Assembly (NCBI GenBank): GCA_016840165.1
Contig: JAEOSU010000076.1
Coordinates: 1-64,000 of the forward strand
Length of the DNA stretch: 64,000 nt
From: Promethearchaeota archaeon
GTDB taxonomy: Archaea; Asgardarchaeota; Lokiarchaeia; Sigyniarchaeales; SOKP01
Reading direction: 5' to 3'
The translations under genes were made by a program, and so were the position numbers. Numbering within the stretch: the stretch's first letter is position 1; each line of letters opens with the position of its first letter. Below the pieces are notes generated by a model that was given only the letters and a program-made list of their open reading frames with translations, was not told the DNA's origin and made no database searches. Of this stretch, positions 20,476 to 55,580 are shown piece by piece.

Positions 20476-22557
20476 ATGGACTTATTTTTTGATCTCAAAA
20501 GGAAAAAAATTGGATATTCCCGGATTGGGCGAATACATCTATCATCTAAGATTAAAACCTATTTTAAAACCCCCAACTTAGTCATTCCGATGACAAATAC
20601 CTTAATTAGCAATATGAATTTCTTAGAATATTTCGAAACTCATGAGGTCTTTTTTATTACTAAACAGATCTTCTTAAAAATTGGATTTCTACGCGACAAA
20701 TTCAAAAATACAAGCTTTATATATTCCCATAACGGTACGATCGCAAAGTTTAAACAAATTCTAAATAAAAATCCAAATATTTTTACCCAAGATAATGTAA
20801 TCTCGATTATTCCTTTTAATGTACCGACCACATCAATCGAAAAAGATTTTGCTACGCAAGAAATCGGAATTTATCTCAATCATGTGAAAAGTGTATTAGA
20901 GGCATACCCTAATAGCAATTTTGGATTTACTATCAGGATTTTTGATTATTCCGAGTTAATAGATTTGTATATTCCATTAATAAAAGCAAATAATAATATT
21001 AAAATATTAAATTTTGCTGATTTGTTTGATAGTTTTAAAAATTTTAGGGCAATTCTTAGAATTATTAATAATGTTAAGCTCGAACTCAACAATAATCTCG
21101 TTTTAATGGCTTCAGGCCGATTAATTCCTAAGTATTACCCATTCTTAATATATTTGGGATTTGATCTGATTGATAGTTCTTATATGATGTACCTTTCCGC
21201 AGAGAATTTTTATAATACAACTGAAGATTTATTACCTATATATAAACTTAAAGATTTACCTTGTCCGTGTATTGCATGTTCAGGAAAATTAAAAAATCTC
21301 TTACAGGATAAATATTCGCAAGAGAAGATATTACTACTTACACTCCACAATTTAATTTCGGCAAAAATATATATGAATAAAATTAAGCAATTTTTAGATA
21401 CTGAAGATTATAGGTCATTCTTAGAAAAGACAACTCATGATGATACTTTATTATATTCAAGTTTAAAGACATTAGATAAAGAGTTTTTTGAAAGTCTCAG
21501 ATTAGAGACTCCATTATTATCAACAAGCACACTAGTTAAATGTATTGGTCCAATTTCATATCATAGACCCGATTTTAAGGAGTTTAGAGACAGAGTTGTA
21601 AATAACTTCATACCAGAGCCATGGACGAAATTAATAATAATTTTACCGTGTTCTGCGAAAAAACCTTATTCTGAGTCTAAGTCGCATAAAAAATTTTATA
21701 AGGTTATAAGAAAATTTCCTGAATTTCCTGATTTTCAAGAATTTATTTTAACTTCTCCTTTAGGAGCAATTCCAAGGCAATTAGAAAACATATACCCTGT
21801 CAACTCTTATGATATTCCGGTTACAGGAGATTGGGATCAAGAGGAGATATATATTTCCGCAGAGATGTTAACCAGCTTATTAAAGAAATACGATAATGCA
21901 ATCCCAATAATCTGTCACTTAAAGGAAGGAGGATATTCCTCAATTATAGAAGAAGTAATCAAAAAAGTTGATCACAAGTTTTATTTTACTGAATCTGATG
22001 ATAATCTTACCTCTAAGAATGCTTTAAAATCATTAGAAGAGAAGATAGAAACTTTAAAAAATAGCAAAATTGATGTCTTAAATCCTTCAACTCTCCAGCC
22101 TCTTATTACCAATTCATGGACAAGAAAATTTATTAAAATTGCGGATTATCAGTACGGGGCAGACTCTGGTATGAAACTTTTTGCCAATGGAGTAAAAATG
22201 AGAAGAAATCGGGCTAAAACGAAAATTGAAATCATCGATCAAAAAAGTAATGAATCTATCGGGAAATTTGACTTGAATAAGGGTCAAATTGAATTGACAA
22301 TAGCTGGTGCTGAACAATTATTCCCGTATAGAAGTGATGGTAATTATCTCGTGTTTGATGGTGAAAAAGTTAAAGGAAGTAATCTATTTAGACCAGGAGT
22401 AATTGAATTTAGTCCTAATATATTACCCCAAAGTAACATTGCTATATTAGACAAAAATAAACAAAAAATCATAGCCGTTGGAAATGCAATTATTGGTTCG
22501 AATAATATTAGAAATATTAAAAAAGGATTAGTAGCTGAAATCTATGAGAAGCTCTAA
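20476..22557 (+). CDS. arcS: Archaeosine synthase ArcS (TGT-like, DUF5591, PUA)
   Basis: SRIGRI..KTP, CPCIAC Zn site, LPCSAKKPYSESKSH, TSPLGAIPRQLE, YDIPVTGDW and C-terminal PUA. Confidence 0.92.
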   Translation: MDLFFDLKRKKIGYSRIGRIHLSSKIKTYFKTPNLVIPMTNTLISNMNFLEYFETHEVFFITKQIFLKIGFLRDKFKNTSFIYSHNGTIAKFKQILNKNPNIFTQDNVISIIPFNVPTTSIEKDFATQEIGIYLNHVKSVLEAYPNSNFGFTIRIFDYSELIDLYIPLIKANNNIKILNFADLFDSFKNFRAILRIINNVKLELNNNLVLMASGRLIPKYYPFLIYLGFDLIDSSYMMYLSAENFYNTTEDLLPIYKLKDLPCPCIACSGKLKNLLQDKYSQEKILLLTLHNLISAKIYMNKIKQFLDTEDYRSFLEKTTHDDTLLYSSLKTLDKEFFESLRLETPLLSTSTLVKCIGPISYHRPDFKEFRDRVVNNFIPEPWTKLIIILPCSAKKPYSESKSHKKFYKVIRKFPEFPDFQEFILTSPLGAIPRQLENIYPVNSYDIPVTGDWDQEEIYISAEMLTSLLKKYDNAIPIICHLKEGGYSSIIEEVIKKVDHKFYFTESDDNLTSKNALKSLEEKIETLKNSKIDVLNPSTLQPLITNSWTRKFIKIADYQYGADSGMKLFANGVKMRRNRAKTKIEIIDQKSNESIGKFDLNKGQIELTIAGAEQLFPYRSDGNYLVFDGEKVKGSNLFRPGVIEFSPNILPQSNIAILDKNKQKIIAVGNAIIGSNNIRNIKKGLVAEIYEKL

Positions 22558-23635
22558 TGAGAATGATTCATTAATCGTGAAGATTAAACAAAATAGAAAG
22601 AAATTTATTCAAAATAGAACCAAATCGTCAAGCATAGTACTCGATAAACCCGTCAGTTTTTGGATCAAAGAGGACCGATTATTAAATAAGAAAGGTAAAG
22701 AATTTACAATAATATTACGAACCAGAGGTTGCAGTTGGGCTTTAGGAGATTCGGGGGGGTGTTCGATGTGTGGATATATAGGAGATTCGAACATTGATCC
22801 AGTCGATCCTGAGCAAATTCTCCATCAGTTTGAATATGCTATGAAAGCTAAAGAACATGAAATTATTTCATCCAAGGATGATTTTGTGCTTAAAATTTTT
22901 AACTCAGGCAGTTTTTTCGATGATGAGGAGATTCCAGAGAATATTAGAGCCAAAATATATGATAAGATTAAAAATTACGATAAAATTAAGGAAGTTGTTA
23001 TCGAATCTCGTGCTGAATATTTAACAGAATCTAAATTAGATGCTATACAGAATGCTTTGCAAGATAAATATGTGGAAGTAGCAATTGGTCTTGAAAGTGT
23101 TGATGATCATATTCGAAATAATTATATTAATAAAGGATTACTATACGATGATTTTTTAAAAGCAGTAGAGTTATGTAAAGAATTTAATTTAGGGATAAGA
23201 GTTTATTTACTTTTTAAACCACCATTTCTCAACGAACAAGCAGCTATTGATGACTGTATCAATTCGGTAAATACTTTAATCAATCTACACGTGAACACTA
23301 TCTCAATTAATCCAGTAAATATCCAAAAAGGATCATATGTAGAATATCTTTGGTACCAAAACCGATATCGACCACCCTGGTTTTATTCTCTTATCAAAGC
23401 TTTAAAAAAAATACTTTTAAGTAGAAGAGATGAAATTTCTACTCGTATTATTTCTGATCCGTCTGGAGCAGGCACAAAGCGAGGGATTCATAACTGCCTC
23501 AAGAGAGAATGTAATGAAAATATGCTATCCTTATTAAGAAACTTTGTTATCACTCAAAATGTTGAAGATTTATTAAAAGACGTTCCTAAATGTGATTGTA
23601 AATTAGAATATAAATTAAAAAAATTGTATATGTGA
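22544..23635 (+). CDS. raSEA: Archaeosine biosynthesis radical SAM enzyme RaSEA
   Basis: LRTRGCSW...GGCSMCGY, FNSGSFFD, KPPFL, YRPPW and RGIHNC; overlaps arcS. Confidence 0.92.
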   Translation: MRSSNENDSLIVKIKQNRKKFIQNRTKSSSIVLDKPVSFWIKEDRLLNKKGKEFTIILRTRGCSWALGDSGGCSMCGYIGDSNIDPVDPEQILHQFEYAMKAKEHEIISSKDDFVLKIFNSGSFFDDEEIPENIRAKIYDKIKNYDKIKEVVIESRAEYLTESKLDAIQNALQDKYVEVAIGLESVDDHIRNNYINKGLLYDDFLKAVELCKEFNLGIRVYLLFKPPFLNEQAAIDDCINSVNTLINLHVNTISINPVNIQKGSYVEYLWYQNRYRPPWFYSLIKALKKILLSRRDEISTRIISDPSGAGTKRGIHNCLKRECNENMLSLLRNFVITQNVEDLLKDVPKCDCKLEYKLKKLYM

Positions 23636-23902: not shown

Positions 23903-24151
23903 TTGAAAAACTGGGTCAAATTAAGCTTGTTCTACCTCGGGGACTCTAAAAAGAACCGTATTTTTAGAGCGAAAAGATGGAATAAAAATCTTGAAAAAGT
24001 AACTCATAAACCCATTTTTACCGAGGAATATGAAGAAATCGGTATAATAAAAGAGATTTTTGGTCCTATTAATTTACCATTTATTTCAGTTAAAGCTCAT
24101 CATAAGACCCAGATAAATTCTAATAGTAATTATTATGTAAAAATTCACTAA
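23903..24151 (+). CDS. gar1: Gar1/Naf1-family H/ACA RNP protein
   Basis: [19 protein letters not shown]; conserved position upstream of tfb. Confidence 0.82.
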
Positions 24152-24183
24152 GAATTATTGAATTCCCCGATAACCATTCTAAG

Positions 24184-25149
24184 GTGAAAAATATTTCAAG
24201 CTGGAATGATATAAAATTAATCCCACCCGAAAGAATAAAGAGTGAAAATAATATTTGTTCTGAATGTGGAAAAAATATTCTTTTCGATGAAAATAGAGGG
24301 TTATTGGTATGTGAAGAGTGTGGTTTGGTGCATTCAGAAAATCATATTGATCATGGCCCTGAATGGCGAGCTTTTGATGCGGATCAGAAGAAAAAACGAA
24401 CCCGAACAGGAGCCCCAATGACATATATGATCCATGATAAGGGCTTATCAACCATGATCGATTGGAAAAACAGAGATATTTTTGGTAAAGAGATTCCTGC
24501 AAAATTGCGAGGGCAGATCTATCGACTTCGTAAGTGGCAGAGTCGAATTAGAGTTTCCGATGCTACTGAACGTAATCTTACTTTTGCTTTGAGTGAATTA
24601 GATAGAATGGCCTCAAATTTAGATCTGCATAAAAATATTCGTGAATGCTCAGCAAAGATATATAGAGACGCAGTAGAAGCTCATTTAATCCGTGGTAGAA
24701 GTATTGAAGGAGTAGCTGCAGCAAGTCTATATGCTGCCTGTCGCATGTATAAAATTCCTCGTACTCTCAATGAAATTGCTGAAGTAGCAAGAGTAGATAA
24801 AAAAGAAATTGGTAGATCATTTCGATTCATTTCCAATGAATTAATGCTTAATCTAAATCCCACAAAAGCCTTAGATTTTCTTACACGATTTATTTCTGAG
24901 CTTGAATTATCTCCATATTGCCATAAAATGGCTAAAAAAGTAATTAAGATGGCTGAATTACGTGGCTTAACCTCGGGTAGAGGCCCCACGGGAGTGTGTG
25001 CAGCAGCAATTTATGCCGCTTCGATTTTAACAAAAGAGAGAAGAACTCAACGAAAAATTGCGAAAATTAGTCAAGTCACAGAAGTGACTGTGAGAAATAG
25101 ATTTTCTGAATTAATTGATAATTTGGATTTAGGGATAAAAAGTAAATAA
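24184..25149 (+). CDS. tfb: Transcription initiation factor IIB
   Basis: CSEC/CEEC Zn ribbon, GPEWRAF B-reader and two cyclin repeats. Confidence 0.97.
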
Positions 25150-25318
25150 CCCAAATATTCTTTTTTTTTATTTAATACTTTTATAAATTCTCTTGCCAAA
25201 ACGATAATATTATCTACTAAGAATAAGAGCAGTAATAATATCTTCATATCACACCATTTAAAGATTGCATTTTTATTCATTTATTTTATCTATTATTCAA
25301 TTTGATAGGTTAAATCAT

Positions 25319-25669
25319 ATGAAGTCAGAAAGCCCAAGATTGATTAATCAGACGGACGTTAATTATTTTTTGCATCGTGTTAAAAAAAATTTTCCGAATT
25401 TTGTGGCGGGAGTGATTACAGATCGTAATGGATTTCCAATAGGATCTCATATCTCGAAACGACTTTGGGTTCATGAAAATACTTTAGCACTCTGGGCAAT
25501 TTCTAAAAATAAAGAGTTGGTGATAAGAGAACCCAATTTAGTCCAGTTGAAGTTTGATATTGATAAGAGGAAGAAATATAAACTTTATATATTAATTGAA
25601 AAATCAAAAAACCATAAAGCAAAACTGAAAGTACTAAAGCAGATGATTAAATCTCAAGAGTTATTCTAG
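25319..25669 (+). CDS. Divergent roadblock/LC7-like protein
   Basis: FVAGVITDRNGFPIGS motif. Start set at MKSE. Confidence 0.6.
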   Translation: MKSESPRLINQTDVNYFLHRVKKNFPNFVAGVITDRNGFPIGSHISKRLWVHENTLALWAISKNKELVIREPNLVQLKFDIDKRKKYKLYILIEKSKNHKAKLKVLKQMIKSQELF

Positions 25670-25813
25670 TGAGAATTGGGTAGTCTTTATGTAATATTTC
25701 AAATTATTAGGATAACCTTAAATTAATTAATGTGTCTCATTAAATTTTTATAGATAAAAGGTTATTTTTATACTATATTCGCTATTATTTGTTGAAGATT
25801 TTGAATATAATAT

Positions 25814-26314
25814 GTGGATTCATTGAGAAAATTGGTGAACCTATTGAGTTATTCTGAAGATGAGGCAAAATTAAAGGGAATTATTAAGGAGATTATCAAT
25901 AGCACCCCAGGGTTAAAAAACGTTATAATCATCGATGATACAGGTATCACCATTTTGAGTGAGTCAAAATTCAATTTTCCCTCGGATGATGATATTTCTG
26001 TAGAAAAGATCGGAGCTATTGGAGGTGCTGTATTTACTGCGGGTCAGGAACAAGGACACATTTTAGGGTATGGAAATATAAGTCTGCAAATCACCGAATA
26101 TGATAAGGGATTTTTGTTTTCATTAAAAATTGGAAAAGGAGTTCTATGTATTGCTACTGATACAAATATTCAGATTGGGTATATTCGAGCATTAATGAAA
26201 AGATGGGCACCAATAATCGCTAAAATCTTAAATAGTTATCTCCAAACAAATCAAGAAGATATAAACAAGGAACTAAAAGATTTATTTAGTTCCGATACTA
26301 TTGGCATGTATTGA
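25814..26314 (+). CDS. Roadblock/LC7 (MglB/LAMTOR-like) protein
   Basis: TPGLKNVIIIDDTGITI, EKIGAIGG, TEYDKG and NIQIGYIR fit the roadblock fold. Confidence 0.85.
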   Translation: MDSLRKLVNLLSYSEDEAKLKGIIKEIINSTPGLKNVIIIDDTGITILSESKFNFPSDDDISVEKIGAIGGAVFTAGQEQGHILGYGNISLQITEYDKGFLFSLKIGKGVLCIATDTNIQIGYIRALMKRWAPIIAKILNSYLQTNQEDINKELKDLFSSDTIGMY

Positions 26315-26325
26315 TGGAATTTAGA

Positions 26326-26641
26326 GGAAATTCAGCATATATTGTAGCCTAAAACACTAACTCCTTTTGTTCATTTTTTGGTTACACCATTAAAATCAAA
26401 AAAGTTCTCTCGTGTTAGGCAATAATTTCTATGCCTTTTTGGGAACATAATCATGTCTTCCATCTGGGTACTGACTCTGACTTCATCGCTTTGGTATTCA
26501 CCTTTGCTAAATCAAGAGCCCATTTGTCTGGAAATGTGTTGATTATTAAATTCTGGATGTAAGCATTATTTTGCACAATTACTCATCGATTTTCATAATT
26601 GTCCTCGAAAATGCTCTGGTTATTCCTTCATCATTTTCCCA
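26326..26641 (-). ncRNA. Putative composite box C/D - H/ACA guide RNA (three H/ACA hairpins)
   Basis: 5' GGAAA-ATGATGA (box C, 26634-26628) and 3' CTGA-ATTTCC (box D, 26335-26332) with a terminal stem. Three pocketed hairpins (26614-26563, 26534-26457, 26420-26347) are each followed by ACA. TATA-like element about 25 nt upstream. Confidence 0.8.
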
Positions 26642-26660
26642 GTATTATTATATAATATCT

Positions 26661-26676
26661 TATTAAAAATTTTTAC
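26661..26676 (-). promoter_or_regulatory. BRE/TATA-like promoter of the guide RNA
   Basis: Minus strand TAAAAATTTTTAATA about 20-30 nt upstream of the predicted RNA 5' end. Confidence 0.5.
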
Positions 26677-26892: not shown

Positions 26893-27492
26893 ATGAGTAT
26901 CGTATTTATTATCCAATCTAGCACAATAGAACTTAAAAACTATACTATTAAGGATATTCCTGGTTCTTCTGGCAGATTAGATGTTATTTCAAGAGCAATT
27001 TTAGCAGCACTCATGGGAGAGAATGGAATAGAGCAAAATGTTGAAATATGGGTATTTTTAGATAATTATGGTACTTTTATATTTAAATCAAATAATTTAG
27101 ATGAAAATACCTTTCCTAAAAATGAAATTTTACTCTCAGATTACTTTGTAAAGATTATTCTGAAAGGTAGTGATCCAAAATCTCTAGATAAAAATCCATT
27201 AAATATGGTTGAGCATGTACATCTAAATGTAATTGATGCAATCGAGAATTTTAAGGAATGTAATTACCAGATATTAATATTACATGAGGAGGGGGAAGAT
27301 TTTTATCCTTTGTTTACTAATCTTGATAAGCAAAGTAAATTGCTATTTATTATCGGAAATCAAATTGGTGAGATGTTAAATTCAGAAGATCTGATGCACT
27401 TTGACTTTAAAAGAATTAGTTTAGGAAAGCAAAAATATTTAGCATCCTCGGTTATTCGGTTATTAAAGCTGAATTTAAGGTTAATATTATGA
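26893..27492 (+). CDS. trmY: tRNA (pseudouridine54-N1)-methyltransferase
   Basis: DIPGSSGRLDVISR, PKNE, LHEEGED, FIIGNQIG and ISLGKQKYLASSVI. Confidence 0.9.
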   Translation: MSIVFIIQSSTIELKNYTIKDIPGSSGRLDVISRAILAALMGENGIEQNVEIWVFLDNYGTFIFKSNNLDENTFPKNEILLSDYFVKIILKGSDPKSLDKNPLNMVEHVHLNVIDAIENFKECNYQILILHEEGEDFYPLFTNLDKQSKLLFIIGNQIGEMLNSEDLMHFDFKRISLGKQKYLASSVIRLLKLNLRLIL

Positions 27493-53180: not shown

Positions 53181-55580
53181 ATGAAAAAAGTATTAATAGT
53201 TGGCGGAGTTGCTGGTGGTGCATCAGCGGCAGCTCGTTTAAGAAGGTTAATGGAAAATATAGAAATCATCGTATTTGAGAAAGGTTCTTTTGTCTCATTT
53301 GCTAATTGCGGTTTACCTTATTACGTTGGAAATGTAATAAAAGAACGTGATCAGCTAGAACTGATGACCCCGAAAGATTTTTATGATCGATTTAATATCG
53401 ATGTCAGAATAAATCAAGAAGTAATTTCGATTAATCGTAGTCAAAAGACAGTGAACATCATAGATTTAGAGAAAGATAGTGAATATTATTTAGAATATGA
53501 TTATTTAATACTCTCTCCTGGTGCCTCTCCTATCATACCCCCCTTCAAGGGTTTGAAAGATGTTCCAACTTTTACACTTCGGACTATTCCTGATTCTGTA
53601 AAAATAAGAGAATTTGCTGAAGAGAATAAAGTAAAACATGCAACTATCATTGGAGGAGGATATATTGGATTAGAAATGGCAGAAAATCTCAAAGAAAAAG
53701 GAATTCGAGTTAAGATTGTTGAAATGCTTGATCAAGTTTTAGCACCTTTAGATAAAGAAATGGCCCAGTTTATTCATCAAGAATTAATCTTAAATGGAGT
53801 ATGTCTTCAATTAGGAGATGCTGTCGACTCTTTTATGTGCGATGAGAACCAGTGCAACTATGTTATTCCAAAGAGTGGTAAAAAGATTAAAACTGATATG
53901 ATAATTATGGCAATAGGTGTAAAACCGGAGAATAAGTTAGCTATAGATTCAGGTTTAAAAGTTGGTCCGAAAGGACATATCATAGTTGATAATCATATGA
54001 GAACATCTGATCCTTACATTTATGCCGTAGGGGATGCGGTTCAAACTAATAATTATATTACAGACCAATCTGCAGCTATCCCACTTGCGGGTCCAGCAAA
54101 CAAACAAGGTAGAATTGCAGCCGACAACATAGCGGGAAGAAATTCGATATATAGAGGAATCTTAGGAGCTTCTGTACTTAAAGTTTTTGACCTTACAGTT
54201 GCATTTGTTGGATTAAGTGAGAAACAGTTAAAGGGGATGGATATTGATTATGAAAAAATTTATGTTCATCCAAATAATCATGCTGGTTATTATCCTGGTG
54301 CTATTCCGATTACACTTAAATTATTGTTTGAAAAAACAAGTGGTAAAATACTAGGAGCTCAAGCCGTTGGAGGGCCTGGTACTGAAAAACGCATAGATGT
54401 GATATCAACTGCAATAAAGTTTAAGGGAACAGTCTTTGATTTGGAAGAACTAGAGCTTACATATGCTCCCCCTTATGGATCAGCAAAGGATCCGGTCAAT
54501 ATGGCAGGATTTGTGGCATCAAATGTACTACGGGGAGATCATCCTATATGGCAATGGGAAGACTTACCAGAAATTCAACAAAATAATAGTGCATTTATAG
54601 ATGTAAGGACCCCCGAAGAATTTGAAGTTGGGTCGATTGAAAACGCATTGAATATCAATGATTTAGAATTACGACAGAGGTTAAATGAGATTCCAAAAGA
54701 TAAAAATATCTATGTATTTTGTGAAGTGGGTTTTCGTGGTTATTTAGCAACGAGATTATTGCTTCAAGAGGGTTTTGAAAAAGTTCGGAATCTTACAGGA
54801 GGTTATAAACTTTTAAAAACAGCCCAAGCGACTACGCAAGAATTAGCTGAAGCTTGCGGACCACCAGAAGAAATAATGGAAGAGATGATTCAAGAAAAAA
54901 CCACCGAAACTGATGAATTTATGGAAGTTGATGCTTGTGGAATTTCATGTCCAGGTCCTTTAAATGCTCTTATCCAAGGACTTGACAATCTGCCTGAAGG
55001 TAAAAAACTTAAAATATATACGACTGATCCTGGTTTTAAATCAAGTGTAGAAGCATATGTAAAACTCAACGAGGCTGTGAAGTTATTATACTTAGGAAAA
55101 GAAAAGGGAAAGCTAATGGCTATTCTCGAAAAAGGAATCATATCAAAAGAAGAAGTTAAAGCCCCTATTAAAGTGAAAAAGAAAACACGTTCTGAATTAA
55201 GAGGACCAGAAGCACCGCCCTTATCAGAGATAAATGCAACCGAATTATATGACAGAATGGGTACTGAAGATTCACCCGCATTAGTAGTGGATGTTCGAAC
55301 ACCCTCTGAATACCATGAAACAGGTTATATAAAAGACTCAGAGTTGATACCATTAGGAGAGTTAATGAGAGATTTAGGAAAATTAGAGGAGTATAAAGAT
55401 AAAGAAGTCGTAGTCTTATGTGCAGTAGGGGGTCGTTCTTTCATGGCAGCACAGCTTTTAGTGAGGGAGGGTTTTAGAGACGTAAGAAACCTAGTCGGAG
55501 GAATAAAAGCTTGGATAAGACTCGGTTACCCAGTAACTGGAGGCGTGATAGATTCAACCGTAAAATATCTTAAAACCTAA
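53181..55580 (+). CDS. CoA-disulfide/persulfide reductase fused to rhodanese, TusA and a second rhodanese
   Basis: GGVAGG, SFANCGLPY, YAPPY; DVRTPEE..CEVGFRG; DACGISCPGP; DVRTPSE..CAVGGRS. Confidence 0.9.
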   Translation: MKKVLIVGGVAGGASAAARLRRLMENIEIIVFEKGSFVSFANCGLPYYVGNVIKERDQLELMTPKDFYDRFNIDVRINQEVISINRSQKTVNIIDLEKDSEYYLEYDYLILSPGASPIIPPFKGLKDVPTFTLRTIPDSVKIREFAEENKVKHATIIGGGYIGLEMAENLKEKGIRVKIVEMLDQVLAPLDKEMAQFIHQELILNGVCLQLGDAVDSFMCDENQCNYVIPKSGKKIKTDMIIMAIGVKPENKLAIDSGLKVGPKGHIIVDNHMRTSDPYIYAVGDAVQTNNYITDQSAAIPLAGPANKQGRIAADNIAGRNSIYRGILGASVLKVFDLTVAFVGLSEKQLKGMDIDYEKIYVHPNNHAGYYPGAIPITLKLLFEKTSGKILGAQAVGGPGTEKRIDVISTAIKFKGTVFDLEELELTYAPPYGSAKDPVNMAGFVASNVLRGDHPIWQWEDLPEIQQNNSAFIDVRTPEEFEVGSIENALNINDLELRQRLNEIPKDKNIYVFCEVGFRGYLATRLLLQEGFEKVRNLTGGYKLLKTAQATTQELAEACGPPEEIMEEMIQEKTTETDEFMEVDACGISCPGPLNALIQGLDNLPEGKKLKIYTTDPGFKSSVEAYVKLNEAVKLLYLGKEKGKLMAILEKGIISKEEVKAPIKVKKKTRSELRGPEAPPLSEINATELYDRMGTEDSPALVVDVRTPSEYHETGYIKDSELIPLGELMRDLGKLEEYKDKEVVVLCAVGGRSFMAAQLLVREGFRDVRNLVGGIKAWIRLGYPVTGGVIDSTVKYLKT

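What the first reader, a model, noticed from the sequence alone, without database searches (positions are those of the whole stretch)
26326..26641. Unannotated composite box C/D + triple H/ACA guide RNA (scaRNA-like architecture)
Seen on the minus strand: box C (AUGAUGA) and box D (CUGA) are brought together by a GGAAA/UUUCC terminal stem. They enclose three hairpins with lower stem, pocket and upper stem, each followed by ACA about 14, 16 and 13-14 nt from the pocket top. Hairpins 1 and 2 carry GAUGA kink-turn/K-loop-like motifs. A TATA-like element sits upstream. Established: archaeal H/ACA guides have one to three hairpins with L7Ae K-turns and the 14-16 nt rule, and H/ACA domains nested inside a C/D frame are typical of eukaryotic U85-type scaRNAs. 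Inference: this is a hybrid guide RNA in the lineage closest to eukaryotes, 2 kb from gar1 and divergent from trmY.
Basis: partly seen in the sequence, partly recalled or inferred. Interest (0 to 1): 0.88.

Follow-up and report, generated by a model that had tools for sequence, protein, structure and literature searches.

The report
Asgard three-hairpin pseudouridine guide RNA
This is a real, conserved and expressed RNA gene of about 305 bases, but not a methylation/pseudouridylation hybrid: it is the Asgard version of a known archaeal guide RNA (Pab40/HgcG) that most likely marks three uridines of the large ribosomal RNA for conversion to pseudouridine, with extra helices closing off each hairpin.

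Summary
The three H/ACA hairpins are real. Homologues occur in 78/84 genomes of the family and in 12 further Asgard family codes. The stems covary, and four metatranscriptomes cover essentially only 26386-26624.

The terminal C/D frame is not real: both boxes survive in 13/49 homologues, boxes plus the 5-bp stem in 1/49 (this genome), and no D-type box has a conserved antisense element. Instead, a C/D-type K-turn closes hairpin 1 alone (49/49), and plain helices close hairpins 2 and 3 directly after their ACA boxes.

The pockets predict 23S U2496, U2554 (U2585/2586 as second, ancestral register) and U1915(/1917), E. coli numbering. Motif order and targets 1 and 3 match Pab40/Pf7/Afu4 (Rfam HgcG), with guide-target covariation for both. 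The four Thermococcales HgcG copies checked lack the closing helices. The link to trmY is local (4/50 loci).

Verdict: a new structural variant of a known guide, not a scaRNA-like hybrid. This scan has reported the same RNA from at least 15 other genomes; I reached my reading before looking. No Psi, protein binding or RNA end has been measured.

The parts
26334..26640 (-). Three-motif H/ACA guide RNA gene, about 305 nt; ends inferred from conservation and promoter position, not mapped
   Evidence: metatranscriptome contigs 26386-26624
26663..26675 (-). BRE + TATA-like promoter element (A-rich run, then TTTTTAA), -30 to -25 from the first G
   Evidence: position-specific conservation in 49 homologues
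26638..26640 (-). 5' GGG, pairing with CCC at 26441-26443; closes motifs 1 and 2 into a three-way junction (3 bp, invariant, so no covariation support)
26624..26636 (-). Bulged, box-C-like strand of the basal K-turn: 4-nt stem, 3-nt bulge, GA, N, GGA
   Evidence: present in 49/49; both flanking stems covary (helices 2 and 3)
26562..26615 (-). H/ACA hairpin 1; guides 26603-26608 and 26571-26574; K-loop 26582-26596; predicted target 23S U2496
   Evidence: best site among 1014 U; target in own 23S on contig C64; Thermococcus guide and target change together
26558..26560 (-). ACA box 1, 14 nt from the pocket top
   Evidence: 47/49 at 14 nt
26548..26557 (-). Non-bulged, box-D-like strand of the basal K-turn (CAGA here, CUGA in 29/49), starting directly after ACA1
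   Evidence: tandem G.A in 46/49
26540..26546 (-). 5' strand of the helix closing motif 2 (partner 26447-26453)
   Evidence: 95.7% of cells paired, compensatory changes; unrelated sequences with the same pairing in other Asgard families
26458..26533 (-). H/ACA hairpin 2; guides 26518-26524 and 26464-26473; K-turn 26506-26510 with 26481-26489; predicted target U2554, second register U2585/2586
26454..26456 (-). ACA box 2 (ACA 30, AUA 17, AAA 2 of 49)
26447..26453 (-). 3' strand of the helix closing motif 2, directly after ACA2
26441..26443 (-). CCC pairing with the 5' GGG
26430..26435 (-). 5' strand of the helix closing motif 3 (partner 26334-26339); optional within the family
   Evidence: present in 42/49; in the other 7 both strands are lost together; compensatory changes
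26347..26420 (-). H/ACA hairpin 3; guides 26407-26411 and 26358-26361; K-turn 26387-26399 with 26369-26375; predicted target 23S helix 69 U1915, possibly also U1917
   Evidence: guide GAGAG/GAGAC covaries with 23S C1920/G1920
26343..26345 (-). ACA box 3
   Evidence: ACA in 48/49, AAA in 1
26334..26339 (-).
26326..26335 (-).
   Evidence: CUGA 23/49; boxes plus full stem 1/49

Best explanation
This is the Lokiarchaeia/Asgard orthologue of the three-motif archaeal H/ACA sRNA Pab40/Pf7/Afu4 (Rfam HgcG). It is transcribed from its own TATA promoter as one RNA of about 305 nt. Each hairpin binds L7Ae at its apical K-turn/K-loop and Cbf5-Nop10-Gar1 at its lower stem and ACA box, and presents a 23S uridine for isomerisation. 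Motif 1 targets U2496 beside the peptidyl-transferase centre. Motif 3 targets U1915, perhaps also U1917, in helix 69, with five unpaired target bases. Motif 2 mainly targets U2554 in the A-loop in this lineage, with the ancestral U2585/2586 register still formable in most copies. Unlike Thermococcales HgcG, every motif is closed by an outer helix starting 0-2 nt after ACA, and the helix under motif 1 carries a fourth, C/D-type K-turn. These additions are most likely structural (end protection, independent folding of each motif, an extra L7Ae site), not a methylation guide. SHOWN: conservation, covariation, complementarity, presence in RNA libraries, presence of the protein genes. INFERRED: protein binding, Psi formation, which register motif 2 uses, RNA ends, the role of the closing helices.
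For: Conserved in 54/60 and 78/84 family genomes. Structure: 92.9% of cells paired and 26/42 pairs with double changes, 0/500 shuffles as high, slid controls at most 43% paired. Motif 1: U2496 scores 26 against a next best of 17 among 1014 U; motif 2 CAG register: U2554 scores 35 against 24. Thermococcus HgcG has the same motif order and the same spacing of guides and K-loop in motif 1, with guide GCGAGG against target CCUCGC where this RNA has UCGAGG against CCUCGA. Pab40 motifs 1 and 3 modify P. abyssi 2588 and 2016 in vitro; motif 2 was assigned to 2647 or 2678 (PMC2377435). Counting on the Thermococcus 23S puts these at E. coli 2496, 2555 and 2586. Family f12 has G1920 in 24 of 25 helix-69 sequences and its guides read GAGAC instead of GAGAG. 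ACCC is lost while CAGC and the 5' guide are kept in L130, L135 and L208; L208's 5' guide has become a canonical match for U2554. Four metatranscriptomes from four studies hold near-identical contigs inside the RNA and next to nothing on the flanking ORFs. Motif matches for cbf5, nop10 and l7ae are in the genome and gar1 is in the window.
Against: No match to RF00064 at this locus, even at E 10, so orthology rests on motif order, guides and targets rather than a profile score. Motif 3's pairing is short (4+5 bp) and only ties for first in the scan; it leans on orthology and the f12 covariation. Motif 2's U2554 register needs a 1-3 nt guide bulge, three unpaired target bases and 16-19 nt to ACA. 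Five copies have a C.A mismatch there that fits the U2586 register better. The own genome's 23S fragment lacks helix 69, so relatives were used. RNA contigs give neither strand nor ends, and the runs were chosen because they hold this stretch.
Confidence: 0.87

Rival explanations
1. True composite guide: terminal boxes C and D enclose all three H/ACA motifs and direct 2'-O-methylation, as in U85-type scaRNAs.
For: In this genome AUGAUGA, CUGA and a 5-bp terminal stem are all present. Motif matches for fibrillarin and Nop5 are in the genome.
Against: Both boxes in 13/49 homologues, with the full stem in 1/49. The G of the box C G.A pair is often A. The terminal CUGA overlaps the covarying helix that closes motif 3. 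The best complementarity to rRNA before any D-type box is 8-9 nt with 3-4 G.U pairs, the level of shuffled guides (mode 8). The 12 nt before the basal D-like box are hairpin stem plus ACA and vary with the stem.
Confidence: 0.02
2. The H/ACA reading holds, but the basal K-turn around motif 1 is a functional box C/D core that loads L7Ae plus Nop5 (with or without fibrillarin) without guiding methylation, giving a hybrid particle or a link between the two machineries.
For: The motif reads mostly AUGAUGG/CUGA (27/49 and 29/49), with a U.U pair next to the G.A pairs as in box C/D. It recurs by eye in families f2, f7, f15, f18, f22, f27 and f30. Rfam's best weak hit is a C/D snoRNA model spanning exactly this domain (E = 2, chance level).
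Against: The position next to the G.A pairs varies freely (U, A, C on one side; U, A, C, G on the other), as in an ordinary K-turn. Family f12 replaces it by a plain helix and L198 (f9) has none, so it is dispensable. A plain L7Ae site explains all the conservation.
Confidence: 0.08
3. The unit is a precursor, and the closing helices are processing signals that release separate single-motif guides.
For: Each motif has its own closing helix. L197 (f30) lacks motif 2 entirely, and G030 and G279 carry separate partial copies of motif 3.
Against: RNA contigs of 205-241 nt run across motif borders in three studies, although contigs cannot prove a mature species. I saw no bulge-helix-bulge in the closing helices inspected. 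Pab40 was detected by northern blot (PMC2377435) and Haloferax sR-h45 is a single RNA (PMC7075261).
Confidence: 0.06

Closest known systems
Pab40 / Pf7 / Pho40 / Afu4 / Tko1 three-motif H/ACA sRNA, Rfam HgcG RF00064 (PMC2377435, PMC6138745)
   Same: Three motifs in the same order; motif 1 guides for U2496 with the same K-loop spacing; motif 3 GUUA guide for helix 69 U1915; motif 2 retains ACCC for 2586; own TATA promoter.
   Different: Thermococcales copies have 0-5 nt linkers and no closing helices. This RNA closes each motif with an outer helix, adds a basal K-turn and a three-way junction, has a motif-3 5' guide leaving 5 target bases unpaired instead of 2, and a CAGY element that makes U2554 the better motif-2 target. 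It is too diverged for the Rfam model.
Haloferax volcanii sR-h45 (PMC7075261, PMC2584109)
   Same: Homologue of motifs 2 and 3; its 3' motif makes both helix-69 Psi residues from an enlarged unpaired target segment, the model for motif 3 here.
   Different: Two motifs only, separated by a 56-nt spacer proposed to form a pseudoknot; motif 2 acts at the 2586 equivalent.
Pab21 / snoR9 (Rfam RF00065; PMC4652768, PMC2377435)
   Same: Shows that an archaeal transcript can carry both an H/ACA motif and a C/D motif.
   Different: Tandem, not nested; it has an annotated C/D sRNA part, which this RNA lacks.
U85-type composite C/D-H/ACA scaRNAs (PMC4041459)
   Same: An H/ACA domain with its ACA box inside a closed structure; here motif 1 lies inside a C/D-type K-turn.
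   Different: U85 has a terminal C/D core that works on its own, CAB boxes, and (own knowledge) a methylation guide for U5 snRNA. Here there is no conserved terminal C/D core, no antisense element, the targets are rRNA, and there is no evidence of homology.

Membership tests
Archaeal box H/ACA sRNA | Stem - internal loop - stem hairpin followed by ANA | tested here: met
   three motifs; ANA in 49/49 for each; covarying stems
Archaeal box H/ACA sRNA | 14-16 nt from pocket top to ANA | tested here: met
   motif 1: 14 nt in 47/49; motif 3: 16-18 nt including a variable bulge (26 in two copies with an inserted hairpin); motif 2: 15-19 nt, mostly 16 after discounting the bulge
Archaeal box H/ACA sRNA | Apical K-turn or K-loop about 10 layers above the pocket | tested here: met
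   hand count on alignments A1, A3, A4 against the rule in PMC4652768; motif 2 has A.U or A.A in place of the second G.A
Archaeal box H/ACA sRNA | Bipartite complementarity around a conserved rRNA uridine | tested here: met
Archaeal box H/ACA sRNA | Cbf5/L7Ae/Nop10/Gar1 binding and Psi formation | not testable with these tools
   only the genes were found, by motif or Pfam
HgcG / Pab40 / Afu4 (RF00064) | Three motifs in the order U2496, (2555/2586), U1915 | tested here: met
HgcG / Pab40 / Afu4 (RF00064) | Score above the Rfam gathering threshold (77 bits) | tested here: not met
   no hit at this locus; Thermococcales copies score 196-213 bits. Filed as a diverged orthologue by guides and order, not as an Rfam member
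Box C/D methylation guide | Conserved terminal boxes C and D with a closing stem | tested here: not met
   both boxes 13/49; with full stem 1/49
Box C/D methylation guide | Conserved 10-12 nt antisense element before D or D' | tested here: not met
   best 8-9 nt with G.U pairs, equal to shuffles, against rRNA (tRNA not scanned); region varies among homologues
Box C/D methylation guide | Nop5/fibrillarin binding | not testable with these tools
   genes present by motif
U85-type composite scaRNA | H/ACA domain nested in a functional C/D guide | tested here: not met
   only motif 1 is nested, in a K-turn without guide element
U85-type composite scaRNA | CAB boxes and snRNA targets | not tested
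   apical loops are K-loop/K-turn type and the predicted targets are 23S rRNA; no CAB search was run

The most novel reading that the evidence does not exclude
The C/D-type K-turn that encloses motif 1 in many Asgard lineages loads Nop5 as well as L7Ae. The RNA would then be a natural archaeal particle with an H/ACA motif nested inside a box C/D core, a structural forerunner or analogue of U85-type composite RNAs. Together with the inferred move of motif 2 from U2586 to U2554 it would record steps towards the eukaryotic modification map.
Probability: 0.08. Interest if true: 0.75.

Novelty: new variant of a known kind. Interest (0 to 1): 0.4.

Why it matters
It gives testable pseudouridine predictions for Asgard ribosomes, for which I found no guide RNA in the library searched (the library is incomplete). 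The predicted sites are modified in eukaryotes too: helix 69 by yeast snR191/human U19 (PMC7075261), the 2588 site per PMC2377435, and U2554 = yeast Psi2923 from my own knowledge. The helices closing each motif right after ACA keep their pairing across Asgard families with unrelated sequences. That conflicts with the usual picture of a free ACA tail and raises a concrete structural question for Cbf5's PUA domain. Motif 2 offers a traceable case of guide retargeting. It does not support an archaeal origin of scaRNA-like methylation/pseudouridylation hybrids.

Tried and rejected
Rfam at gathering and E-value thresholds: nothing significant; RF00064 does not find the locus.

Terminal C/D frame: rejected. 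Methylation targets for the terminal D, basal D-like and apical D'-like boxes: chance level against rRNA. A by-eye resemblance of the segment after box C to the 16S 5' end (U3-like pairing) was dropped because that segment is variable in homologues.

Motif 3 aimed at U1921 (canonical two-base gap, score 17): disfavoured because f12 lacks the second UAAC and its guide covaries with position 1920. Motif 2 with the upper stem extended over GGCUC/GAGUC and a short 5' guide: no good target in this family.

Functional link to trmY: adjacency not conserved.

No homologue found with my patterns and models in the single-contig f2 genomes G068 and G074, in f8, f13, f17, f24, f25, or (above chance) in f10; these are misses, not absences. 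A motif-1 pattern in 121 genomes of the Nitrosotalea phylum gave 5 hits against 5 control hits; the one inspected (L258) reads as coding sequence. So whether non-Asgard archaea other than Thermococcales have the closing helices is untested.

Rfam rRNA searches of the own genome returned nothing although rRNA fragments are present at contig ends. The sigma-70 promoter scan is not applicable. Searches failed for technical or format reasons. Absence of flanking cover in RNA contigs is only a weak hint.

Full report
1. What is in the sequence. The interval 26326-26641 lies between a roadblock-like ORF (25814-26314, +) and trmY (26893-27492, +), downstream of gar1 and tfb. On the minus strand it folds with z = -2.34 and has no Rfam match. 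The three hairpins, the three ACA boxes, AUGAUGA near the 5' end, CUGA near the 3' end and a GGAAA/UUUCC complement are all present in this genome.

2. It is a conserved and expressed gene. BLAST finds it in 54 of 60 family genomes, and a covariance model of motifs 1-2 in 78 of 84. A T-rich TATA element with an A-rich BRE is conserved at -30 to -25 from an invariant GGG. The conserved neighbour is the convergent roadblock gene (47/50 loci) with orf134 and tfb beyond it; trmY is adjacent in only 4/50. Four metatranscriptomes from four studies contain contigs of 169-241 nt with 0-3 differences inside 26386-26624. The only other cover is one diverged 69-nt piece on the roadblock gene. These are contigs, so strand, ends and level are not shown, and the runs were selected for holding this stretch.

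3. The terminal C/D frame fails. In 49 homologues RUGAUGA is kept in 19, the terminal CUGA in 23, both in 13, and both with the 5-bp stem in one, this genome. The G that would form the first sheared pair of box C is often A. Scanning rRNA with the 13 nt before each D-type box gives at best 8-9 nt with several G.U pairs, the same as shuffled guides.

4. The architecture that is conserved. The invariant GA three bases further on belongs to a K-turn whose partner strand begins directly after ACA1. It is present in 49/49 (46 with tandem G.A), and both flanking stems show compensatory changes such as GGA/UCC to AGA/UCU and GAA/UUC. It reads like a box C/D motif (mostly AUGAUGG with CUGA) but encloses hairpin 1 only. 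A 7-bp helix closes motif 2 directly after ACA2. The 5' GGG pairs with CCC behind it, giving a three-way junction; those 3 bp are invariant and so unproven by covariation. A 5-8 bp helix closes motif 3. It is present in 42/49, and in the other seven both strands are lost together. Counted on alignment A3, the structure has 92.9% of cells paired and 26 of 42 pairs with double changes, against at most 43% paired when slid.

5. Targets (E. coli numbering, aligned by hand from conserved landmarks).
- Motif 1 pairs UUGC and CCUCGA around U2496-U2497. This is the best of 1014 uridines (26 versus 17) and is present in the genome's own 23S fragment.
- Motif 3 pairs UAAC (1911-1914) and CUCUC (1920-1924), leaving U1915-A1919 open. 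The register is fixed by covariation: family f12 has C1910/G1920 in 24 of 25 helix-69 sequences and its guides read GAGAC. By analogy with Haloferax sR-h45, where the most 5' open U is converted first and a second follows (PMC7075261), I infer Psi1915 and possibly Psi1917.
- Motif 2 has two registers: U2554 (7 bp on the 5' guide; CAGY plus CCC on the 3' guide; score 35 versus 24) and U2585/2586 (ACCCAG with one mismatch on the 5' guide; score 28 versus 24). CAG is kept in 48/49 and ACCC in 45/49. L130, L135 and L208 have lost the ACCC/CCC element but kept CAGC. Several 23S copies have C at 2586. Only the U2554 register gives a near-symmetric upper stem of about 10 layers. I therefore favour U2554 in this lineage (about 65%), possibly with dual use.

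6. Orthology. Thermococcales HgcG copies (196-213 bits) have the same three motifs in the same order. Their motif-1 guide GCGAGG matches their target CCUCGC, where this RNA has UCGAGG and CCUCGA. Pab40 motifs 1 and 3 modify P. abyssi 2588 and 2016 in vitro; motif 2 of Afu4/Pf7 was assigned first to the 2647 and then to the 2678 equivalent (PMC2377435). Counting from the motif-1 target on a Thermococcus 23S (by hand), +59 is U2555 and +90 is U2586, which reproduces those numbers. Psi at the 2588 equivalent depends on cbf5, nop10 and gar1 in T. kodakarensis (PMC6138745). Haloferax keeps motifs 2 and 3 (PMC2584109). In the four Thermococcales copies the hairpins follow each other with 0-5 nt linkers and there are no closing helices (by inspection).

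7. Spread in the phylum. Models and patterns found homologues in families f2, f5, f6, f7 (same class) and f9, f12, f15, f18, f22, f27, f30, f31; the tools give codes, not names. All inspected copies outside the family close motif 3, and nearly all close motif 2, with helices of unrelated sequence. Motif 1 is closed by the K-turn in f2, f7, f15, f18, f22, f27 and f30, by a plain helix in f12, and by nothing obvious in f9. Outside f1, f2 and f7, motif 2 has ACCC directly below the upper stem and no CAG, which fits 2585/2586. The U2554 register therefore looks like a gain within the class. This is an inference from distribution; no tree was built.

8. Mechanism. Shown: gene, structure, complementarity, presence in RNA libraries, and motif matches for cbf5, nop10, l7ae, fibrillarin and nop5 in the genome. 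Inferred from the family (PMC7075261, PMC4652768): L7Ae on each apical K-turn, Cbf5 on the lower stem and ACA, and U-to-Psi conversion about 14-16 nt above ACA. Inferred without direct precedent: the closing helices protect the ends and let each motif fold on its own, and the basal K-turn is a fourth L7Ae site. Nop5 loading there is not excluded (8%).

9. Verdict. A real, uncatalogued, structurally elaborated orthologue of a known archaeal guide. The headline claim of a scaRNA-like C/D + H/ACA hybrid is not supported, and archaeal H/ACA + C/D co-transcripts are already known (Pab21/snoR9). Earlier notes of this scan reached the same identification in at least 15 other genomes. My reading was recorded before I saw them, and they are not independent evidence. 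Interest 0.40.

Noticed in passing
G000:C40 about 212-290 (L260), + strand: A second, unannotated single-hairpin H/ACA candidate: 10-bp lower stem, K-turn, ACA at 14 nt, guides fitting 23S U1911 in helix 69. Similar DNA in 14/24 genomes of the genus. No obvious closing helix, so the stalks may be specific to the HgcG orthologue.
   Followed up: partly
G000:C64 near 53190-53230 (L051); also L037, L039 and the helix-91 tip in L035, L036, L041-L050, L052, L055, L057: 23S rRNA genes of this family carry 30-40 nt hairpin insertions at about position 2477 and at the tip of helix 91, and others near helix 69 (L062, L067); they look like small archaeal rRNA introns or expansion elements. They may explain why the Rfam rRNA search missed the own fragment.
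   Followed up: no
L184 (G030:C17:42369-42470) and L243 (G279:C251, second match): Partial second copies of motif 3 about 0.5-0.9 kb from the full RNA, one with a degraded guide.
   Followed up: partly
L197 (G226:C13, about 54340-54560): Two-motif version lacking motif 2: motif 1 inside a textbook-looking AUGACGA/CUGA K-turn with terminal stem, and motif 3 on a long closing helix. It is the best test object for Nop5 binding.
   Followed up: partly
L138 (G053): Only family member without the CAG element; AACCC sits directly below the upper stem at 14 nt, the arrangement seen outside the family.
   Followed up: partly
L020, L027 (genus g5): A 10-nt hairpin is inserted in the 3' strand of motif 3's lower stem, lengthening the count to ACA to 26 nt.
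   Followed up: no
window 26269-26293 (- strand): Terminator-like hairpin followed by a U-rich run 40 nt downstream of the RNA, overlapping the end of the convergent roadblock ORF.
   Followed up: no
window 23903-26314 (+): Conserved gar1 - tfb - unknown 134-aa ORF - roadblock-like ORF cluster. The 134-aa ORF has no Pfam hit; gar1 and tfb are called with TTG and GTG starts.
   Followed up: no
window 20476-23635 (+): Archaeosine synthase-like gene (TGT, DUF5591, PUA) next to a radical SAM gene, a tRNA-modification pair just upstream of gar1.
   Followed up: no
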